A DNA stretch of 12,840 nt from Candidatus Firestoneibacteriota bacterium. Lineage in GTDB: Bacteria > Oederibacteriota > D2-FULL-39-29 > JBBTED01. Below the pieces are notes generated by a model. That model saw nothing but the letters and a program-made list of their open reading frames with translations. It did no database searches and was not told the DNA's origin. Shown in pieces: positions 2 to 12,840 of the stretch. Where the stretch lies: contig JBBTED010000143.1 in assembly GCA_038042445.1 (NCBI GenBank), forward strand, positions 1 to 12,840, given 5' to 3'. Both the position numbers and the translations under genes were made by a program. Positions within the stretch are counted from its first letter, which is position 1, and every line of letters starts with the position of its first letter.

Positions 2-1279
2 ATTGAAAATAAAGGAGTTAAAGAAAAAATAGGACTAAAATTTAACAAAGTCCTGAAAGTGGGATTAGTAGGTTGTGGAAAGATAATGTCAGCACATTTA
101 AATGGGTATAAACAGCTTAGAGAAAAAGGATTGACAGATTCATTGATAGTAGGATTATGCGATTTAAAGAAAGAAAATGCAGAGATGTTTAGGAAAAGAG
201 GAGAAGGTCCTGTTCCTTTTGCTGAAGTGGGACCAAAAGGTGATCCTTTGAATGAATCTCATTTATATGTATCTGATTTTCAACAGGAATATGATGCAAA
301 AATTTTTACAGATTATGAGGCTATGCTTAAAGAAGTTGATGCCGTAGAAATATATACTACTGTATCAACACATCATTCTTTGGCTCTTAGTGCGATTAGT
401 GCTGGTAAACATGTTTTAGTAGAGAAACCAATGGCAATAAGTATAAAAGCCGGGCGAAAGATTGTAGAAGAAGCTGAAAAGCGAGAGGTGGTTTTTGGGG
501 TAGCAGAGAGTTTTAGATATATGCCGATGTCACGAATGCGTAAGTGGATTATAGAACAAGGTTATATAGGAGATATTCAAATGGTTGTTGGTGCATCTAT
601 TGGAGGGTTTTGGTCTCCTGATAAAATTATTGCAGAAACTTCATGGAGACATTGTAAATTAAAAGCAGGTGGTGGGGCAGTAATTGATGCTGGAGTGCAT
701 GGTTTTCATCTTTTACGATATCTTGTGAGTGAAATAGAAGAAGTAAATACAATTGTAAAAAATATAGAATCTCATAGAGTTACACGTGATACTTCAGGAA
801 AAATAATAGAAAGTATCGAAAGTGATGTTGATGATACTTTTTTTGGATTGTTTCGGTATAGAAATGGTGCTATTGGTCAAAACTTATTCTCCTGGGCAGG
901 TCATGGAGAAGCATCAAATTTGGAACAAACGATATACGGCACAAAAGGATGTATAAAAGGTGAAAGAATAATTCTTGATGATGGAACTAATACTACAGTT
1001 AAAAACTTTTTTGACAATAATGTAGAGCCGGGTATTAAAGAAAAATATTTTCCTAAAGGAGTAATGGATCCATTTGCATTAGAAACATTAGATTTTTTGT
1101 CTGCAATTCAGGAAAAAAGACAAATGGAAGTTAATGGTAAAGAAGGTTTGAGGGATTTATCAGTATGTTTTGCAATGATTGAATCATCACTAAATGGGAA
1201 ATTCACAAAAGTAGATGATATAGAAAGTGGGAAAATAGCTGAATATGAAAAAGAGATAAATGAGTATTATAAATTATAA
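2..1279 (+). CDS. Gfo/Idh/MocA family NAD(P)-dependent oxidoreductase, probably 5'-partial
   Basis: Rossmann start KVGLVGCG, AGKHVLVEKP motif, GGGAVIDAGVH motif. The frame is open from position 2 (IENKGVKEKIGLKFNKVLKV), and the ORF-track GTG at 59 falls inside the first beta strand, so the true start is probably upstream of the window. Confidence 0.9.
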   Translation: MENKGVKEKIGLKFNKVLKVGLVGCGKIMSAHLNGYKQLREKGLTDSLIVGLCDLKKENAEMFRKRGEGPVPFAEVGPKGDPLNESHLYVSDFQQEYDAKIFTDYEAMLKEVDAVEIYTTVSTHHSLALSAISAGKHVLVEKPMAISIKAGRKIVEEAEKREVVFGVAESFRYMPMSRMRKWIIEQGYIGDIQMVVGASIGGFWSPDKIIAETSWRHCKLKAGGGAVIDAGVHGFHLLRYLVSEIEEVNTIVKNIESHRVTRDTSGKIIESIESDVDDTFFGLFRYRNGAIGQNLFSWAGHGEASNLEQTIYGTKGCIKGERIILDDGTNTTVKNFFDNNVEPGIKEKYFPKGVMDPFALETLDFLSAIQEKRQMEVNGKEGLRDLSVCFAMIESSLNGKFTKVDDIESGKIAEYEKEINEYYKL

Positions 1280-1302: not shown

Positions 1303-2331
1303 ATGGGAAAAATATATAAACTTGGGATCGTTGGATTGGTTCACGACCATGTATGGAGTTGCATTGAGAATATCAAAAAAATGAATAATGCTGAAATAAT
1401 TTGTATTGCTGAAAATAATCCTGTGGTTTTAAAAAAAGCTAAAGCAATATTAGACAATGTTAAATTGTATAAAACTCATAGCCAATTGTTAAATGAAGAA
1501 GAAATAGATGTATGTTTGGTTTTTACAGAAACCTGCAAACATGCTCAGGTAACAGAAGCTTGTGCAAAAAAAGGTATCCATGTTATGGTAGAAAAACCTA
1601 TGGCAGTTACATTTAAAGATGCTAAACAGATGTTGAATTCTGCTGAAAAAAGCAAAATAAAATTAATGGTTAATTTTCCTACAGCATGGAATCCTAATTT
1701 ACATAAGTGTTATGAAGTAATTAAATCAGGTAAAATAGGTCGTGTATGGATGATACGTTGGCGAGATGGACATCAGGGACCAAAAGAAGTTAATTGTTCC
1801 AAAGAATTTTTGAAATGGCTTTTTTGTGCTCCAAAAAGTGGTGGAGGTGCTTTAGTTGATTTCGGATGCTACGGTGCTGAATTTACAGCTTTGTGTTTTG
1901 GACGACCTGTGAGTGTAACTGCAGTAGCAGATACTTTAGTAAGAAAATACCTGCAGGTGGAAGATAATGCTGTTATTATCACCAAATATGCTCATCCAAC
2001 AGTTTTATGTAATATTGAAGGAACATGGTCCCAAATACCTGGTGGTTTATCTTTACATATATTAGGAGAAAAAGGAAGCATAGTAAAAAATCCATTATCT
2101 CCTGTGGAATATAATATTTATACACAAGATACAAAAAAATGGGAGCTTTTAAAACCCTCTGTATTAGCACAATGGCAGAGTGAACCAATTGCTTATTTTC
2201 TACATTGTATCGAACAAAATCTACCAATAGAAGGATTAACAAGCCCCTATGTTGCAATAATTATGCAGGAAATTTTAGAGGCTGCTAAACTATCTGTAAA
2301 AAAATGCAAAACAATAAAAATGGAGGATTAA
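1303..2331 (+). CDS. Gfo/Idh/MocA family oxidoreductase
   Basis: KLGIVGLVHDH N-terminus, GIHVMVEKP, GGGALVDFGCY, EDNA motif; RBS AAGGAGG at 1285-1291. Confidence 0.9.
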   Translation: MGKIYKLGIVGLVHDHVWSCIENIKKMNNAEIICIAENNPVVLKKAKAILDNVKLYKTHSQLLNEEEIDVCLVFTETCKHAQVTEACAKKGIHVMVEKPMAVTFKDAKQMLNSAEKSKIKLMVNFPTAWNPNLHKCYEVIKSGKIGRVWMIRWRDGHQGPKEVNCSKEFLKWLFCAPKSGGGALVDFGCYGAEFTALCFGRPVSVTAVADTLVRKYLQVEDNAVIITKYAHPTVLCNIEGTWSQIPGGLSLHILGEKGSIVKNPLSPVEYNIYTQDTKKWELLKPSVLAQWQSEPIAYFLHCIEQNLPIEGLTSPYVAIIMQEILEAAKLSVKKCKTIKMED

Positions 2332-2335
2332 AATT

Positions 2336-3169
2336 ATGGAAATAGCAATAAGTACATTTAATATAGATGAAGAGATAGAAGCAGGCAAATTAGATTTATT
2401 TGAAGCAATGAAACAAACCCATGAGATGGGATTTGACGCAATAGAGTTTTTAGGTAATCAAATACCTTCTCTTGAAGATGATTATTTAGAAAGGCTTAAG
2501 TTGCACGGTAAAAAATTAAATTTAAAAATATGTGCAATAGATGTAGTAAACAGGCATTTTGGAAGCAATGATTTTGAGCGGAAAAATGATATCAGTCTCA
2601 TAAAATTTTGGATCAAAACTGCAGCACAGCTTGAATGCCCTTGTCTTGTTGCGTTTTTAGGAGGTTTTGAAGAAGAAAAAAACCGTAAAATGCAATTACG
2701 AAGAGATATTGATGCATTTAAAGAATGTGTAGAATTTGCTGAAAAATCTAAAGTAAGATTGGCTATAGAGAATCATCGCATTTGGCTTAGAGAAAATGAA
2801 TGGGAGCAAGAAAATGAAACAGACGATATTCTGCTAATAGTTAAAACAATTAATTCAAAGTATCTTGGTGCTTCACCAGACATCGGCAATTTCTATAAAA
2901 GTAGTTTTAAAGAATTATCAGTTAAACAACAAGAATATGCATATAATTGTTTTGAACAACTTATTTCAGTAGCATTGCATATCCATATTAAGATTAAAAA
3001 TTTTGATGAACATGGAAAGTCATTACAAAGTGATTTTGGAAAATTGGTAAATGTATTAAAAAAGTATAATTATAATCGCACAGTAACACTTGAATTTGCT
3101 AAACCTGTAGCTGAGAAAAAAGATGTTTTACATGAACAAGGGTTAGCATTGTTAAAAAAATATATTTAA
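2336..3169 (+). CDS. Sugar phosphate isomerase/epimerase family protein (xylose isomerase-like / AP endonuclease 2 TIM barrel)
   Basis: GFDAIE, RLAIENH, PDIGNF, HIHIK and TLEF supply the E/D/H/E metal-ligand pattern. Starts 4 nt after the upstream stop, with GGAGG inside the end of the preceding gene. Confidence 0.85.
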   Translation: MEIAISTFNIDEEIEAGKLDLFEAMKQTHEMGFDAIEFLGNQIPSLEDDYLERLKLHGKKLNLKICAIDVVNRHFGSNDFERKNDISLIKFWIKTAAQLECPCLVAFLGGFEEEKNRKMQLRRDIDAFKECVEFAEKSKVRLAIENHRIWLRENEWEQENETDDILLIVKTINSKYLGASPDIGNFYKSSFKELSVKQQEYAYNCFEQLISVALHIHIKIKNFDEHGKSLQSDFGKLVNVLKKYNYNRTVTLEFAKPVAEKKDVLHEQGLALLKKYI

Positions 3170-3173
3170 GGTT

Positions 3174-4088
3174 ATGGTTAATAAAAAGACAATTACCGGG
3201 TTTGTATTTGATATACAGCAATTTTCATTGCATGATGGGCCAGGTATCAGAACTACAGTTTTTCTTAAAGGTTGTTCGCTTCGTTGTTTTTGGTGTCAAA
3301 ACCCTGAAGGTTTGACTGTAAAATCTGAATTACAATTTTTTGCAACACGGTGTATTGGTTGTGGTTCATGTTTTCGTGTATGCACAAATAAAGTTCATAT
3401 AATAGAAAATGGGAAGCATATTATTAAACGTGAAAGATGTATGCAATGTGGAAAATGTGTTGATGAGTGTTTTGCAAGAGCATTAATTATGGTTGGCAAA
3501 GAGATGACTTCAGATGAAGTGGTTAAAGTAGTAATACAGGATAAAATGTTTTATTCATTATCAGGAGGTGGTGTTACTCTTTCAGGTGGTGAGCCTGTTT
3601 TGCAAAGTGAATTTGCTTATGAAATATTGAAAAAGTGTAAAAATAATAATATTCATACAGCTATTGAAACAGCACTAAATTTTAAATGGGATAATATTAA
3701 AGTGCTACTTTCTGTTCTTGATATTGTGATAATGGATATTAAACATATTGATTCTAAAAAACATCAGGAGGCAACAGGTGTATCCAATAAATTAATTTTA
3801 GAAAATGCAAAACGTTTATCAAAAGAGAAAATACCAATTATCATCAGGGTTCCTGTTATTCCATTATTTAATGACAATGTTGGGGATATTAAAAAAATAA
3901 CAGATTTTGCTAAAGATTTTCCAAATCTTTTGTATATTGAATTATTACCGTTTCACAGATTAGGTGAAAGCAAATATGAAACTCTTGGTTTATTTTGTAA
4001 TACTAAAAAATCAATTGCTCCTGATAAAACAAAAATGTTAAAATTTGCTAATATAGTGAGAAATGTTGGTATAAGGGTAAAAGGATAA
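3174..4088 (+). CDS. Glycyl-radical enzyme activating protein (radical SAM with ferredoxin-like insert)
   Basis: HDGPGIRTTVFLKGCSLRCFWCQNPE (CxxxCxxC), two CxxCxxCxxxC motifs (CIGCGSCFRVC, CMQCGKCVDEC), GGVTLSGGEP, ELLPFH. Confidence 0.95.
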   Translation: MVNKKTITGFVFDIQQFSLHDGPGIRTTVFLKGCSLRCFWCQNPEGLTVKSELQFFATRCIGCGSCFRVCTNKVHIIENGKHIIKRERCMQCGKCVDECFARALIMVGKEMTSDEVVKVVIQDKMFYSLSGGGVTLSGGEPVLQSEFAYEILKKCKNNNIHTAIETALNFKWDNIKVLLSVLDIVIMDIKHIDSKKHQEATGVSNKLILENAKRLSKEKIPIIIRVPVIPLFNDNVGDIKKITDFAKDFPNLLYIELLPFHRLGESKYETLGLFCNTKKSIAPDKTKMLKFANIVRNVGIRVKG

Positions 4089-4091
4089 AAT

Positions 4092-6254
4092 ATGAGGCAT
4101 AAAAACTATAGTTTTCAGGAACGATTAGATATTTTACGAAAAACAAAATTGCAGCATACTAAATTAAAAAGTATTCAGCAAGGGGCTAAAGATATGGATG
4201 ATTGGGGACAAATTCCTTATGAAGGGGGATTTATATTTGTTCCGGAGACTGACCATCCTAAAGGATATGTAATAGGTTCAAAATTATGCGGCAAAAATTT
4301 CAGACTATTTTTAGAAAAATCTCCAACTTATATAAGTAAGTTAAGTTCTTTATTAGGTGGATATTATTTCATATTTGCATCTTATGTTACAAAATGGGAT
4401 CCTGAGAATTACTGGGTGCATTTAGCTCAAGAGCAAAAGAAATACAATATTCTTTCTGGAATAACTGCAAGTCATCATTTTGGTATGGATTTAAAATTAG
4501 GACTTGAATTGGGTTTTGGAGGTATTTTAGATAAAATAAAGTATTATAGGGAAAAAAACTCATCAGGGGATATTGACTTTTATGATGCTTTGGAGAATGT
4601 AGTTATTGGCATACAAAATTGGATAAAAAATCATATTAAAGATGCTAAAGAAGCAGCTAAAAAAGAAAACCATTTGCAACTTAAAAATAATCTTGAAGAA
4701 ATGGTAGAAATAAATACAAAACTTATAACGAATCCACCTGAAACTTTTCGTGAAGTATGCCAATGGGCAGCTTGGTATCAAATGGCAGCTCGTGTATATA
4801 ATGGTAGTGGAGCATTAGGAAATATTGACCAATTATTTTACCCATATTATAAAAAAGACAAAGAAAGAGGATATTTAACTGATGAAGAAGCTATTTTCCA
4901 TTTAGCATGTTTGAATATAACTGACCCTCAATATATACATATTGGCGGTATTGATGAAAAAGGTAAGGACATTACGAATGAATTATCGTTTTTGATATTA
5001 GAAGCAGTGCATAGTATTAAAATAGCGGCTAATATTGCAGTTGATGTTCATGACAATATGGATAAAAAATTACTATATAAATCTGTTGAGCTATTATTTA
5101 AAGATAAATTAGGGATACCAAGATTTTTCAGTATAGAAAATATGGCAGAAGGTTTTGCTAAAAATGGTATTCCAATTGAGACTGCAAGAAAAAGAATACA
5201 GGTTGGCTGCCATTGGTTTAGTTTGCCTGGTAGTGAATATTGTGTAAGTGATGTAATAAAGATAAATTTTGCGAAAGTATTTGATGTTGCTTTTCATGAA
5301 ATGATGGAAGATTTTTCAATTAAACCAACTATTAATGGATTATGGAATTATTTTGAGAAACATCTAAAAAAAGCAGTAGAAGTAACTGCACAAGGAATAG
5401 ATTTACATATGGAATATTTTCATAAATATTTTCCTGAGCTTGTTCTTGATATTCTTTGTTATGGGCCTATTGAAAAAGGGGTAGACGCAACACATGGGAG
5501 TTTAAAATATAATACTATTGGTGTAGATGGTGCTGGATTGGCAACAGTAGCAGATTCTTTTGCTGCAATAGAATTAAGGGTTGAAAAAGAAAAAAGAATT
5601 ACTTGGAAAGAACTACTTAAATGTATAGATGTTAATTTTACAGGAGAAGAAAAAATAAGGCTTATGTTACAAAATATTGCTTGTTATGGAAGGGGAGAAA
5701 CACGTGGTGATTATTGGGCAAAACGATTATCAGAAACTTTCACAAAGATGATAAAAGAAAAAACCACTCCAGCAGGATGGACAATGATTCCAGGCCTTTT
5801 TTCCTGGGCATCTACAATAGAAATGGGAAAAGAAACAGGAGCCACTCCAAATGGAAGAAGAGCAGGTGAACCTATTTCTTTCGGCGCAAATCCTGACCCC
5901 GGAGTTTTTAAAGGAGGTAGTTTAACTCCTACATCATTAGCAATTGCAGTAGCTAAAGTGCAACCTGGATATGGTAATACAGCTCCATTACAATTAGATG
6001 TTGATTCAGGGCTAATTTATGATGAAAATGGCATTGAAAAACTTGAAGCAATAATAACAGGGCATTTCAAGTTAGGGGGAACACTTATAAATGCAAATGT
6101 TTTAGATAAAGAAAAAATTTATGAAGCATATAAAAACCCATCAAAATATCCTGATTTAATTGTTAGAGTAACAGGATTTTCTGCTTATTTTGCGAGTTTA
6201 TCAGATGAATTCAGAAAATTAGTATATGAACGCATAGTATCATTGTCATGTTAA
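4092..6254 (+). CDS. Glycyl radical enzyme (PFL superfamily), substrate unknown
   Basis: C-terminal PSKYPDLIVRVTGFSAYF Gly loop (Gly695), GATPNGRRAGEPIS, PPETFREVCQ, GLATVADS, Cys loop VGCHW (Cys373); adjacent to an activase. Confidence 0.93.
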   Translation: MRHKNYSFQERLDILRKTKLQHTKLKSIQQGAKDMDDWGQIPYEGGFIFVPETDHPKGYVIGSKLCGKNFRLFLEKSPTYISKLSSLLGGYYFIFASYVTKWDPENYWVHLAQEQKKYNILSGITASHHFGMDLKLGLELGFGGILDKIKYYREKNSSGDIDFYDALENVVIGIQNWIKNHIKDAKEAAKKENHLQLKNNLEEMVEINTKLITNPPETFREVCQWAAWYQMAARVYNGSGALGNIDQLFYPYYKKDKERGYLTDEEAIFHLACLNITDPQYIHIGGIDEKGKDITNELSFLILEAVHSIKIAANIAVDVHDNMDKKLLYKSVELLFKDKLGIPRFFSIENMAEGFAKNGIPIETARKRIQVGCHWFSLPGSEYCVSDVIKINFAKVFDVAFHEMMEDFSIKPTINGLWNYFEKHLKKAVEVTAQGIDLHMEYFHKYFPELVLDILCYGPIEKGVDATHGSLKYNTIGVDGAGLATVADSFAAIELRVEKEKRITWKELLKCIDVNFTGEEKIRLMLQNIACYGRGETRGDYWAKRLSETFTKMIKEKTTPAGWTMIPGLFSWASTIEMGKETGATPNGRRAGEPISFGANPDPGVFKGGSLTPTSLAIAVAKVQPGYGNTAPLQLDVDSGLIYDENGIEKLEAIITGHFKLGGTLINANVLDKEKIYEAYKNPSKYPDLIVRVTGFSAYFASLSDEFRKLVYERIVSLSC

Positions 6255-9963: not shown

Positions 9964-11004
9964 ATGTGTAAATCTAGAGTAGTGCCAAATTTTGAACGAT
10001 TACGTAAAGTATTATTATTACAGGGGGAACCTGATAGAATTCCAATAGTAGAATTAGGCGTGGATGATTCCGTAAAAAAAGCATTTCTTGGCAGGGTATC
10101 ATTGACTGCTAAAGATAATGTTGATTTCTGGCATGAAGCTGGTTATGATTATATTAATTTATGGCTAAATTATGGATTAAGGCACGACAGTAGTGTTGAG
10201 AAAATAGCTGATATTGATAATGATTCTAAAGACAGAGTGTGGGCTCCAGAGGGGAAAGGTGCGATAACCACATGGGAAGAATTTGAAAAATTTCCATGGC
10301 CAGACAAAAAAATAAGCTATCAAAATTTTGAAGAAACAAATTTATATTTACCGGATGGGATGAAAATAATAGCAGGTGAAGGTAATATTTTTACACATAC
10401 ATGGGAAATGATGGGATTTGAATATTTTAGCTTTGCATTGGTTGAAAACCCTGATTTAGTGGAGGCAATTTTTAATAAAATTGGTGAAATTATATATTCA
10501 GCATTTAAAGGTGTAATGAGTTGTCCTAATTTAGGTGCTTTGTGGTTTACTGATGATATTGCTTATACAGAAGGATTAATGGTGTCCCCAAAAGTTCTTA
10601 GAAAATATTTATTCCCATGGATTAAAAAAATAGGGGATTTAGCAAAAGAGAATAATTTACCATATATTTATCATACAGATGGTAGATTATGGGAAGTGTT
10701 AGACGATTTAATTGATTGTGGAATTAATGCAATTCATCCTATGGAACCTAAAGCTTGGAATGCAGTAGAAGTTAAGAAAAAATACGGTAATAAATTGTGT
10801 TTGATTGGAAATATAGATTTAGATAGAATTTGCCGTGGAACAACTGTAGAAATAGAAGAAATGGTAAAAGAACGAATAAAAAATTTAGCGAAAGGTGGTG
10901 GATATTGTTTGGGTTCTAGCAATACAATTCCCAATTATGTTTCAATTGAAAATTACAAAGCAATGCTTGAAGCATCTTTTAAATATGGTAAATATCCGAT
11001 TTAG
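9964..11004 (+). CDS. Uroporphyrinogen decarboxylase / MtaA-CmuA (URO-D/CIMS) superfamily protein, function unknown
   Basis: GEPDRIP, MMGFEYFS..LVENPDLV, DDIAY..GLMVSP, YHTDG, LIGNID, GGGYCLGSSNTI...ENYKAM. Confidence 0.88.
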   Translation: MCKSRVVPNFERLRKVLLLQGEPDRIPIVELGVDDSVKKAFLGRVSLTAKDNVDFWHEAGYDYINLWLNYGLRHDSSVEKIADIDNDSKDRVWAPEGKGAITTWEEFEKFPWPDKKISYQNFEETNLYLPDGMKIIAGEGNIFTHTWEMMGFEYFSFALVENPDLVEAIFNKIGEIIYSAFKGVMSCPNLGALWFTDDIAYTEGLMVSPKVLRKYLFPWIKKIGDLAKENNLPYIYHTDGRLWEVLDDLIDCGINAIHPMEPKAWNAVEVKKKYGNKLCLIGNIDLDRICRGTTVEIEEMVKERIKNLAKGGGYCLGSSNTIPNYVSIENYKAMLEASFKYGKYPI

Positions 11005-12071: not shown

Positions 12072-12778
12072 GGTTCTTTCGTATTTAGGGTGAATATCTT
12101 CTTGGGTTTAATAACCCACAATGCTGATGAATTTTCAGCTTAAAGTACTCGACATCTTTATATCCATAAGCCATTCGTTTAAGACGTTTGATTTTATTAT
12201 TAATCCCTTCTGATATAGCCGAGCTGATTTTCTTTTTGAACCAGTTGACGATGTATTGCAGTTTATCCCGAAAACTTTCAGCTATGGTTCTAAATGTTTC
12301 TACGGCACTTGAGAGAGCGTTTTTAATCCACTCCTCAAGATAACTCTGAGCTTCTTCAGGCGTTTCGTAATCGTAAACCTTCAGGAAGCTTTCTTTTAAA
12401 AGCATAGCCTTGTAAATCGGCTCGTTTATCTCACAAAGTCTTTTTAGATAACCCGCTTGGTTTTGGGTAAGGTTATTCTTGTTTTTAAGTAAAATAAATC
12501 TCTGGCGACAGTTCATCAGGCTAATTAGTTCATCGTTGTCTTCTTTGCGGGCTTTGAGTAATTCTTGTTTTCTGGTCATATCCACCGCCCAGTTAAGCTT
12601 CTGCATAATATGGAATTTGTCGTATACGATTAAAGCATTTACGGCATATTTAACTGTTGAACCGATAAAAGTACGTGCGCCGTCTAAAGCTACCGATTCT
12701 ATTCGTTTACAATTGTCTTCACCTATACCAGCGTAATACCTGTCCAAAACTTCAGTTTTCCTGCCTTTGTCGTCCCAA
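12072..12778 (-). mobile_element. ISL3-family insertion sequence, 3' portion
   Basis: Terminus GGTTCTTTCG at 12072 fits the GG(C/T)TCT-type ISL3 ends, the transposase stop lies 13 nt inside it, and the stretch looks less AT-rich than the flanking genes. The other end is not visible. Confidence 0.82.
12085..12777 (-). pseudogene. ISL3-family transposase, C-terminal fragment
   Basis: VALDG, IVYDKFHI, SSAISEGINNKIKRLKRMAYGY...YFKLKI motifs. The N-terminal half, including the GIDE motif, is absent, and all three minus-strand frames have stops within 12781-12840. Confidence 0.88.
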
Positions 12779-12840
12779 CTTGCGTACTTTCCCACTAAAA
12801 AAGCCTCTTTTTAGGTACCACTAAAAAATAAAGTCTTGAT

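What the first reader, a model, noticed from the sequence alone, without database searches (positions are those of the whole stretch)
4092..6254. Compact glycyl radical enzyme with a non-canonical GCHW active-site loop
Seen: Gly loop RVTGFS (Gly695) is intact, but the thiyl loop is VGC373HW, with a further Cys384 (SEYCVSD), and the protein is only 720 aa with an N-terminus I cannot match to known GREs. Known: PFL has adjacent Cys-Cys, while eliminases such as CutC, glycerol/propanediol dehydratase, HypD and IslA have GCxE with a catalytic Glu. Inference: Trp at the Glu position and His next to the Cys point to different chemistry, in a probably uncharacterised GRE class acting on a sugar-derived substrate.
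Basis: partly seen in the sequence, partly recalled or inferred. Interest (0 to 1): 0.8.

Follow-up and report, generated by a model that had tools for sequence, protein, structure and literature searches.

The report
Capless tryptophan-loop glycyl radical enzyme
This intact gene encodes an oxygen-sensitive radical enzyme of a large, unstudied branch that has tryptophan where most studied relatives have a catalytic glutamate and lacks the stretch that forms their active-site lid; it sits in an operon with sugar-type dehydrogenases and likely performs an undescribed radical step on a sugar acid or similar negatively charged sugar.

Summary
Observation confirmed: 4092-6254 encodes an intact 720-aa PFL-like glycyl radical enzyme (GRE) with G-C373-H-W and RVTG695FS, directly after an intact activase. 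The motif is not decay: GCHW in 117 of the 120 closest proteins, and all Cys-x-Trp (CxW) proteins tested form one clade holding none of the four characterised GREs in the tree.

Corrections: Cys384 is not conserved, His374 varies across the clade, and the N-terminus has the normal GRE fold.

New here: (1) the 20-residue beta2-beta3 segment carrying the 'cap helix', which a 2026 review says all GREs retain, is absent in 355 of 355 CxW proteins; (2) Lys/Arg390 sits where PFL Arg435 and HypD Tyr450 bind substrate carboxylate; (3) the five-gene module (two dehydrogenases, TIM barrel, activase, GRE) recurs, rearranged, in a distant locus; (4) cultured Flammeovirga and Persicobacter carry members inside mannoside-utilisation loci.

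Likely function: thiyl-radical attack on an anionic carbohydrate without the Glu/ketyl route. Substrate and the bond broken are untested, and sugar-type neighbours also flank other GREs in a control set. This scan noted the same clade before on other genomes (8 notes). New variant of a known kind.

The parts
4092..6254 (+). Glycyl radical enzyme of the CxW clade, 720 aa (P0001)
5205..5216 (+). Cys loop G372-C373-H374-W375; C373 = GD C433 = PFL C419, W375 = GD E435
6165..6182 (+). Gly loop R692-V-T-G695-F-S; G695 = GD G763 = PFL G734
4923..4931 (+). D278-P279-Q280: three-residue link that replaces the 20-residue cap-helix segment (GD 319-338, PflD 305-324)
   Evidence: helix 264-277 runs into strand 281-285 in the model
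5259..5261 (+). Lys390, at the position of PFL Arg435 and HypD Tyr450 (carboxylate ligands); predicted anion-binding residue
   Evidence: ligand roles from PMC13450708 and PMC7077986
5250..5252 (+). Asp387 = GD Asp447, invariant in 37 of 37 clade representatives
4476..4478 (+). His129 = GD His164 (proposed acid), 337 of 337 in the core clade
   Evidence: GD role
3174..4088 (+). GRE activating enzyme (radical SAM), CxxxCxxC at residue 34 plus two ferredoxin motifs; ends 3 nt before the GRE start
   Evidence: TIGR02494 365 bits over cut-off 174; motifs
2336..3169 (+). Xylose-isomerase-like TIM barrel (PF01261), sugar isomerase/epimerase/lyase type, substrate unknown
   Evidence: orthologue in L083 at 37%
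1303..2331 (+). Gfo/Idh/MocA dehydrogenase 'Gfo2', of a subfamily that recurs beside GREs
   Evidence: orthologue in L083 at 43%
2..1279 (+). Gfo/Idh/MocA dehydrogenase 'Gfo1', open at the contig's 5' end (GTG at 59)
   Evidence: orthologue in L083 at 45%

Best explanation
This is an intact member of a distinct Cys-x-Trp clade of PFL-like glycyl radical enzymes that lacks the CxE glutamate and the cap-helix segment, and it likely uses a Gly695-to-Cys373 radical relay to break a C-O bond in a negatively charged carbohydrate, most likely a sugar acid or oxidised glycoside that the neighbouring dehydrogenases and TIM-barrel enzyme would supply or process. Shown by sequence and model: the fold, both radical loops, the adjacent activase, Trp in place of Glu, the cap deletion, and clade-wide conservation of H129, D387, K/R390 and W572. 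From established GRE chemistry: the activase installs the radical on Gly695 and Cys373 carries it to the substrate. Inferred: K390 (perhaps with R234) anchors a carboxylate or other anion; W375 and W572 pack against a sugar; the missing lid leaves room for a larger substrate; after H-atom abstraction His129 protonates the leaving oxygen and Asp387 or the substrate's own carbonyl/carboxylate does the work of the lost base (dehydration or ring/ether opening).
For: Motif conserved in 117 of 120. Clade support 0.998 and SH-aLRT 100 under a mixture model, with GD, PflD, YbiW and PFL outside. Closest folds are C-O eliminases and isomerases. H129 aligns with GD H164, D387 with GD D447, K390 with PFL R435 in 10 of 10 PFLs. 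In the 337 core members: K 333 and R 4 at 390, H129 337, W572 335, D479 336. In an independent Anaerolineae draw K or R occurs in 18 of 18 CxW loci and in 1 of 22 other GREs, 9 of which have a gap in that column. The K-to-R swap fits a charge role. Cap segment 20-21 residues in 355 of 355, against 40 in GD, PflD, YbiW and 10 PFLs. Five genes with gaps of 23, 4, 4 and 3 nt; L083 has orthologues of the two dehydrogenases and the TIM barrel at 37-45%, against 25-28% for this genome's own paralogues. Gfo2 subfamily and CxW GRE co-occur in 8 of 11 genomes where about 1.5 are expected. Sugar-acid enzymes lie within 5 kb in 17 of 66 well-flanked clusters, kinases in 4. Cultured Bacteroidota members sit among GH47/GH130 (and GH92) genes.
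Against: No biochemistry exists, and the substrate is not identified. The Glu is described as conserved in all eliminases and isomerases and is essential in CutC, IslA and HypD, so C-O cleavage without it has no precedent in the papers read. His at the 129 position is common to most GREs (47 of 67 CxE), so it is weak evidence. Control: sugar-type neighbours are no more frequent around CxW than around other GREs of the same genomes (Gfo 4 of 18 against 5 of 22; sugar-acid enzymes 4 of 18 against 2 of 22). Gfo2 also flanks non-CxW GREs in two genomes. 21 of 66 well-flanked clusters show none of the carbohydrate markers scored, and contexts differ between subclades, so one substrate may not fit all. 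This genome has 27 Gfo and 17 URO-D matches. The co-occurrence thresholds were set after seeing the data and kin are not independent. Side-chain positions rest on alignment, not on measured coordinates.
Confidence: 0.4

Rival explanations
1. C-C cleavage of a sugar acid: a one-cysteine formate lyase or decarboxylase. The carboxylate held by K390 beside Cys373 would leave as a CO2 radical anion after H-atom abstraction, take back the H from Cys373 as formate, and leave a sugar one carbon shorter. Losing the Glu would suppress the competing dehydration.
For: The Glu-free characterised GREs do C-C chemistry (PFL, phenylacetate decarboxylase with an essential Gln484; benzylsuccinate synthase, motif recalled). 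K390 = PFL R435 and C373 = PFL C419, the Cys that donates H to the formyl radical. E449, N600 and N667 also match 10 of 10 PFLs. The genome has no PFL match and no other GRE.
Confidence: 0.25
2. Radical epimerase or isomerase: H-atom removal and return at one sugar carbon with no net bond cleavage.
For: It needs no acid-base Glu, and it would fit a pathway of dehydrogenases and a TIM-barrel epimerase.
Against: No conserved second H donor: Cys384 is 42 of 355, and the Cys at 477, common in the clade, is Gly here. The dehydrogenase pair could epimerise without radicals.
Confidence: 0.1
3. The substrate is not a carbohydrate (for example a large organic acid, an ether or a methylated compound linked to the URO-D/MtaA-like neighbours), and the sugar context reflects hosts rich in sugar genes.
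For: The control shows no neighbour enrichment over other GREs. URO-D/MtaA-like genes lie within 5 kb in 14 of 66 clusters. Many loci have no pathway neighbours.
Against: Orthologous five-gene module in two distant loci; location among glycosidase and transporter genes in two cultured Bacteroidota; URO-D families are expanded in such genomes (17 matches here).
Confidence: 0.2
4. A degenerate or inactive copy of a CxE enzyme.
For: Loss of a residue essential in relatives; no clade member among 40 relatives of this genome.
Against: The same substitutions are fixed across 355 proteins and across loci whose record titles name many bacterial phyla and archaea. The activase is intact and adjacent, and fused to the GRE in 15 of 355 proteins.
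Confidence: 0.02

Closest known systems
B12-independent glycerol dehydratase (PDB 1R8W/1R9D) and propanediol dehydratase (5I2G), GRE C-O 1,2-eliminases
   Different: 25% identity; Trp for Glu435; cap segment 319-338 deleted; Lys for Phe450, Trp for Ser642, Phe for Tyr640; about 60 residues shorter.
PflD and YbiW, GRE sugar isomerases (1,5-anhydromannitol-6-P and 1,5-anhydroglucitol-6-P ring opening; PDB 8YJO, 8ID0, 8ID7)
   Different: They keep CxE and the cap segment (span 40); they fall outside the CxW clade; 24-25% identity; no kinase in this operon.
Pyruvate formate-lyase (PflB)
   Same: No Glu in the Cys loop; basic residue at the Arg435 position; shared E449/N600/N667.
Hydroxyproline dehydratase HypD (6VXC)
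   Same: Acts on a carboxylate substrate; K390 and W572 align with its carboxylate ligands Y450 and T645; shows that the Glu need not act as the base.
   Different: HypD still needs Glu436 (E436Q inactive) and has the cap segment; NF043068 score 227 against cut-off 1100.

Membership tests
PFL-like glycyl radical enzyme superfamily | Ten-stranded barrel fold with PF02901 and PF01228 | tested here: met
PFL-like glycyl radical enzyme superfamily | Gly loop with the conserved Gly and Cys loop with the catalytic Cys | tested here: met
   G695 = GD G763, C373 = GD C433
PFL-like glycyl radical enzyme superfamily | [quoted passage not shown] | tested here: inconclusive
   whole-chain superposition at rmsd 2.6 A, but no coordinates were returned, so the distance was not measured
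PFL-like glycyl radical enzyme superfamily | Cognate radical SAM activase | tested here: met
   3174-4088 over TIGR02494 cut-off; motifs intact
PFL-like glycyl radical enzyme superfamily | Cap helix between beta2 and beta3, stated to be retained by all GREs (PMC13450708 section 4.1) | tested here: not met
   20-residue deletion in 355 of 355; no helix there in the model
PFL-like glycyl radical enzyme superfamily | Glycyl radical EPR signal after activation | not testable with these tools
   needs purified enzyme
GRE 1,2-eliminases and isomerases (GD, PD, HypD, CutC, IslA, PflD, YbiW) | CxE motif | tested here: not met
   W375 at the Glu position; feature
GRE 1,2-eliminases and isomerases (GD, PD, HypD, CutC, IslA, PflD, YbiW) | Family model score over cut-off | tested here: not met
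   HpfG 235/1000, PflD-type PRK09983 232/1109, HpsG 231/1000, HypD 228/1100, CutC 183/1050
GRE 1,2-eliminases and isomerases (GD, PD, HypD, CutC, IslA, PflD, YbiW) | Shared clade with a characterised member | tested here: not met
   GD, PflD and YbiW lie outside the CxW clade; PD, HypD, CutC and IslA were not in the trees
Formate lyases (PFL, TdcE) | Adjacent Cys-Cys | tested here: not met
   G372-C373
Formate lyases (PFL, TdcE) | Two carboxylate-binding arginines (R176, R435) | tested here: not met
   His129 at R176; Lys390 at R435, so one basic residue of two
GRE decarboxylases (HPAD, IAD, PAD, AAD) | Family model score over cut-off | tested here: not met
   IAD 153/1100, HPAD 134/1150; no PAD or AAD model appeared in the scan
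X-succinate synthases | Small accessory subunits encoded beside the large subunit | tested here: inconclusive
Aminoacyl radical enzymes (AAREs) | Ala, Ser or Thr in place of the radical Gly | tested here: not met
   G695 present

The most novel reading that the evidence does not exclude
The CxW clade is a new functional class of glycyl radical enzyme: an open-ended barrel that takes bulky anionic sugars or glycosides and shortens them by radical C-C scission with a single cysteine (a sugar-acid formate lyase), giving sediment, digester and gut anaerobes and Bathyarchaeia an unrecognised route of carbohydrate breakdown.
Probability: 0.15. Interest if true: 0.9.

Novelty: new variant of a known kind. 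Interest (0 to 1): 0.63.

Why it matters
Every new GRE class so far has revealed a new anaerobic pathway. It is routinely labelled 'formate acetyltransferase', which may mislead metabolic reconstructions, and the review notes that no archaeal PFL-like GRE has a known function. It breaks two rules stated in the 2026 review: the Glu of eliminases and isomerases, and the universal cap helix. The work here gives a testable residue set (K390, W375, W572, D387, H129), natural activase-GRE fusions that may ease the activation bottleneck, and cultured hosts in which induction can be measured.

Full report
1. Observation. The ORF at 4092-6254 (+) is 720 aa without stops. It carries PF02901 and PF01228 and lies 3 nt behind a GRE activase that passes TIGR02494 (365 against 174 bits) with intact CxxxCxxC and two ferredoxin motifs. 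No named GRE model reaches its cut-off. It is the only GRE found in the genome, which is 90% complete and has no PFL match.

2. A conserved clade, not decay. The 120 best proteins (self included; others 51-63% identical) have GCHW 117, GCNW 2, GCSW 1. Eighty genome loci gave 82 full-scoring proteins: GCHW 76, GCQW 3, GCNW 3. A profile search of 50%-identity representatives shows the core clade at about 800-1120 bits for full-length members, sister CxW groups at about 330-530, and CxE proteins at 347 or less. Of 438 proteins of 600-1200 aa gathered are CxW, 67 CxE and 16 other; the set is biased towards the query and holds near-copies, so 37 representatives below 60% identity were also counted. 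CxW is one clade in FastTree on 112 rows (0.998) and in IQ-TREE LG+C20 on 41 of those rows (SH-aLRT 100, quick search). Glycerol dehydratase (GD), PflD, YbiW and PFL lie outside; other characterised GREs were not in the trees. The GD row is a 787-aa Clostridium butyricum plasmid protein annotated only as 'glycyl radical protein', taken as GD from its length, numbering and neighbours.

4. The missing cap. Against GD and PflD the protein lacks 20 residues after position 278 (GD 319-338, PflD 305-324). The span A267-G286 is 20 residues in 352 and 21 in 3 of 355 CxW proteins, and 40 in GD, PflD, YbiW and 10 of 10 PFLs. HpsG, propanediol dehydratase and HypD show a like insertion against the clade profile. 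The model runs from helix 264-277 into strand 281-285. [quoted passage not shown] The shortening is not unique: 24 of 67 unnamed CxE relatives have spans of 25-27, 14 have 28-39 and 29 have 40-41, so a wider unstudied group is partly shortened. Whether another segment refills the gap is unknown.

5. Active-site reading, by alignment. C373 = GD C433 = PFL C419. W375 = GD E435. H129 = GD H164 = PFL R176. D387 = GD D447. W572 = GD S642 = HypD T645. K390, two before the conserved Asn, = PFL R435 = HypD Y450. PFL R435 binds pyruvate; HypD Y450 and T645 bind the substrate carboxylate, and E436Q and H160Q are inactive (PMC7077986, passages). In 337 core members position 390 is K 333, R 4; H129 337; W572 335; D479 336. 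D387 and E449 are 37 of 37 and R234 32 of 37 among representatives. The outer CxW groups mostly lack K390 (24 K and 2 R of 37) and may act on other substrates. In a separate Anaerolineae draw K or R is in 18 of 18 CxW loci and 1 of 22 other GREs, 9 of these gapped there. The Glu is also used by the Kolbe-type decarboxylases (PMC13598205, passages), so its loss counts against both the ketyl route and that route.

6. Gene context. Gfo1, Gfo2, TIM barrel, activase and GRE are separated by 23, 4, 4 and 3 nt. L083 (GRE 62% identical) has the same five genes in another order, with orthologues at 45, 43 and 37%, whereas this genome's paralogues are at 25-28%. Gfo2 belongs to a subfamily with shared motifs found within 5 kb in 12 of 114 dereplicated clusters. 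In 150 genomes of the class of L016 (Anaerolineae by record title), CxW occurs in 20, the Gfo2 core in 11, both in 8 (Fisher p 3e-6); thresholds were set after viewing, kin are not independent, and only 7 and 12 candidates per genome were scored. Over 178 loci (114 clusters at 85%; 66 with at least 7 kb of flank) the counts are activase 42, Gfo 17, sugar-acid enzymes 17, URO-D 14, binding proteins 12, kinases 4, TIM barrel 4; the profiles were seeded from these same loci. Flammeovirga kamogawensis and Persicobacter psychrovividus carry GCNW members (44 and 43% identical) with activase among GH47, GH130 and transporter genes, GH92 also in the first. Other cultured hosts of the sister subclade are named.

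7. Results against. In the control, Gfo lay beside 4 of 18 CxW and 5 of 22 other GREs, sugar-acid enzymes beside 4 of 18 and 2 of 22 (two of the 22 were chosen for lying next to Gfo2). The genome has 27 Gfo and 17 URO-D matches. None of 40 relatives has a clade member; one has a weaker GRE match. Contexts differ among subclades. So the carbohydrate assignment rests mainly on the conserved module and the Bacteroidota loci, not on general enrichment.

8. Mechanism. Most likely (0.4): radical relay from Gly695 to Cys373 (established chemistry), binding of an anionic sugar through K390 with Trp packing in an enlarged site (inferred), H-atom abstraction, then C-O cleavage helped by H129 and D387 (inferred, no precedent without the Glu). 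Rivals: one-cysteine C-C cleavage releasing formate or CO2 (0.25), a non-carbohydrate substrate (0.2), radical epimerisation (0.1), degeneracy (0.02).

9. Known and new. It is a GRE by fold, loops and activase, but fails the defining tests of the named classes checked. A search for 'glycyl radical' with 'GCHW' found no paper, the review lists no such class, and 'cap helix' with 'glycyl radical' gave 4 papers, 2 listed, neither on this clade; subscription papers and supplements were not searched. This scan noted the CxW clade before in other genomes (8 notes shown); they agree with my reading and are not independent evidence. Fifteen of 355 proteins are N-terminal activase-GRE fusions; the review does not use the words 'fusion' or 'fused'.

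10. Verdict. Real, intact, uncharacterised; new variant of a known kind; interest 0.63.

Noticed in passing
P0021, P0023, P0027, P0029 and others; L012:5996-9112, L068:9047-12211, L091:239-3442: Natural fusions of the activase (N-terminal, about 300 aa) to the CxW GRE: 15 of 355 proteins.
   Followed up: partly
P0190, P0196, P0201, P0207, P0212 and others; L212, L214, L220, L226: Unnamed non-CxW GREs (CxE, and GCSQ in L212 and L214) with a partly shortened cap segment (span 25-27); a wider unstudied group may have lost the cap helix.
   Followed up: partly
window:11235-12143 and 12085-12795: The sulfatase is cut at 302 aa where an ISL3 transposase overlaps it on the opposite strand; two longer paralogues at 72-74% identity lie on contigs C27 and C81.
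   Followed up: partly
window:6757-9957 and 9964-11004: Downstream CBM30-like protein, third Gfo dehydrogenase, sugar-binding protein and URO-D/MtaA-like gene; no close orthologues beside other clade members, several paralogues in this genome.
   Followed up: partly
L190:22137-22547, L191:22145-22564: A small (136-139 aa) protein with no Pfam match and cupin-like His motifs (by eye) directly follows the GRE in both Flammeovirga and Persicobacter.
   Followed up: no
L008, L028, L038, L042, L046, L050, L053, L055, L056, L063, L073, L104-L106: One orthologous URO-D-family gene recurs near the GRE in 14 loci, often with a sugar ABC transporter and sometimes a PfkB kinase.
   Followed up: partly
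L017 and L054: Two CxW GRE genes in tandem with a single activase between them.
   Followed up: no
L041, L049, L052, L062, L074: Anaerolineae cluster with GH5, phosphotransferase, metallo-lactamase fold, enolase-family dehydratase, GH20 and GH116 around the GRE (a ceramidase-like gene in L074), often without an adjacent activase.
   Followed up: no
L193 and L212: The Gfo2 subfamily also sits beside non-CxW GREs (GCVET and GCSQT loops); L212 has an MtaB-like methyltransferase between them.
   Followed up: partly
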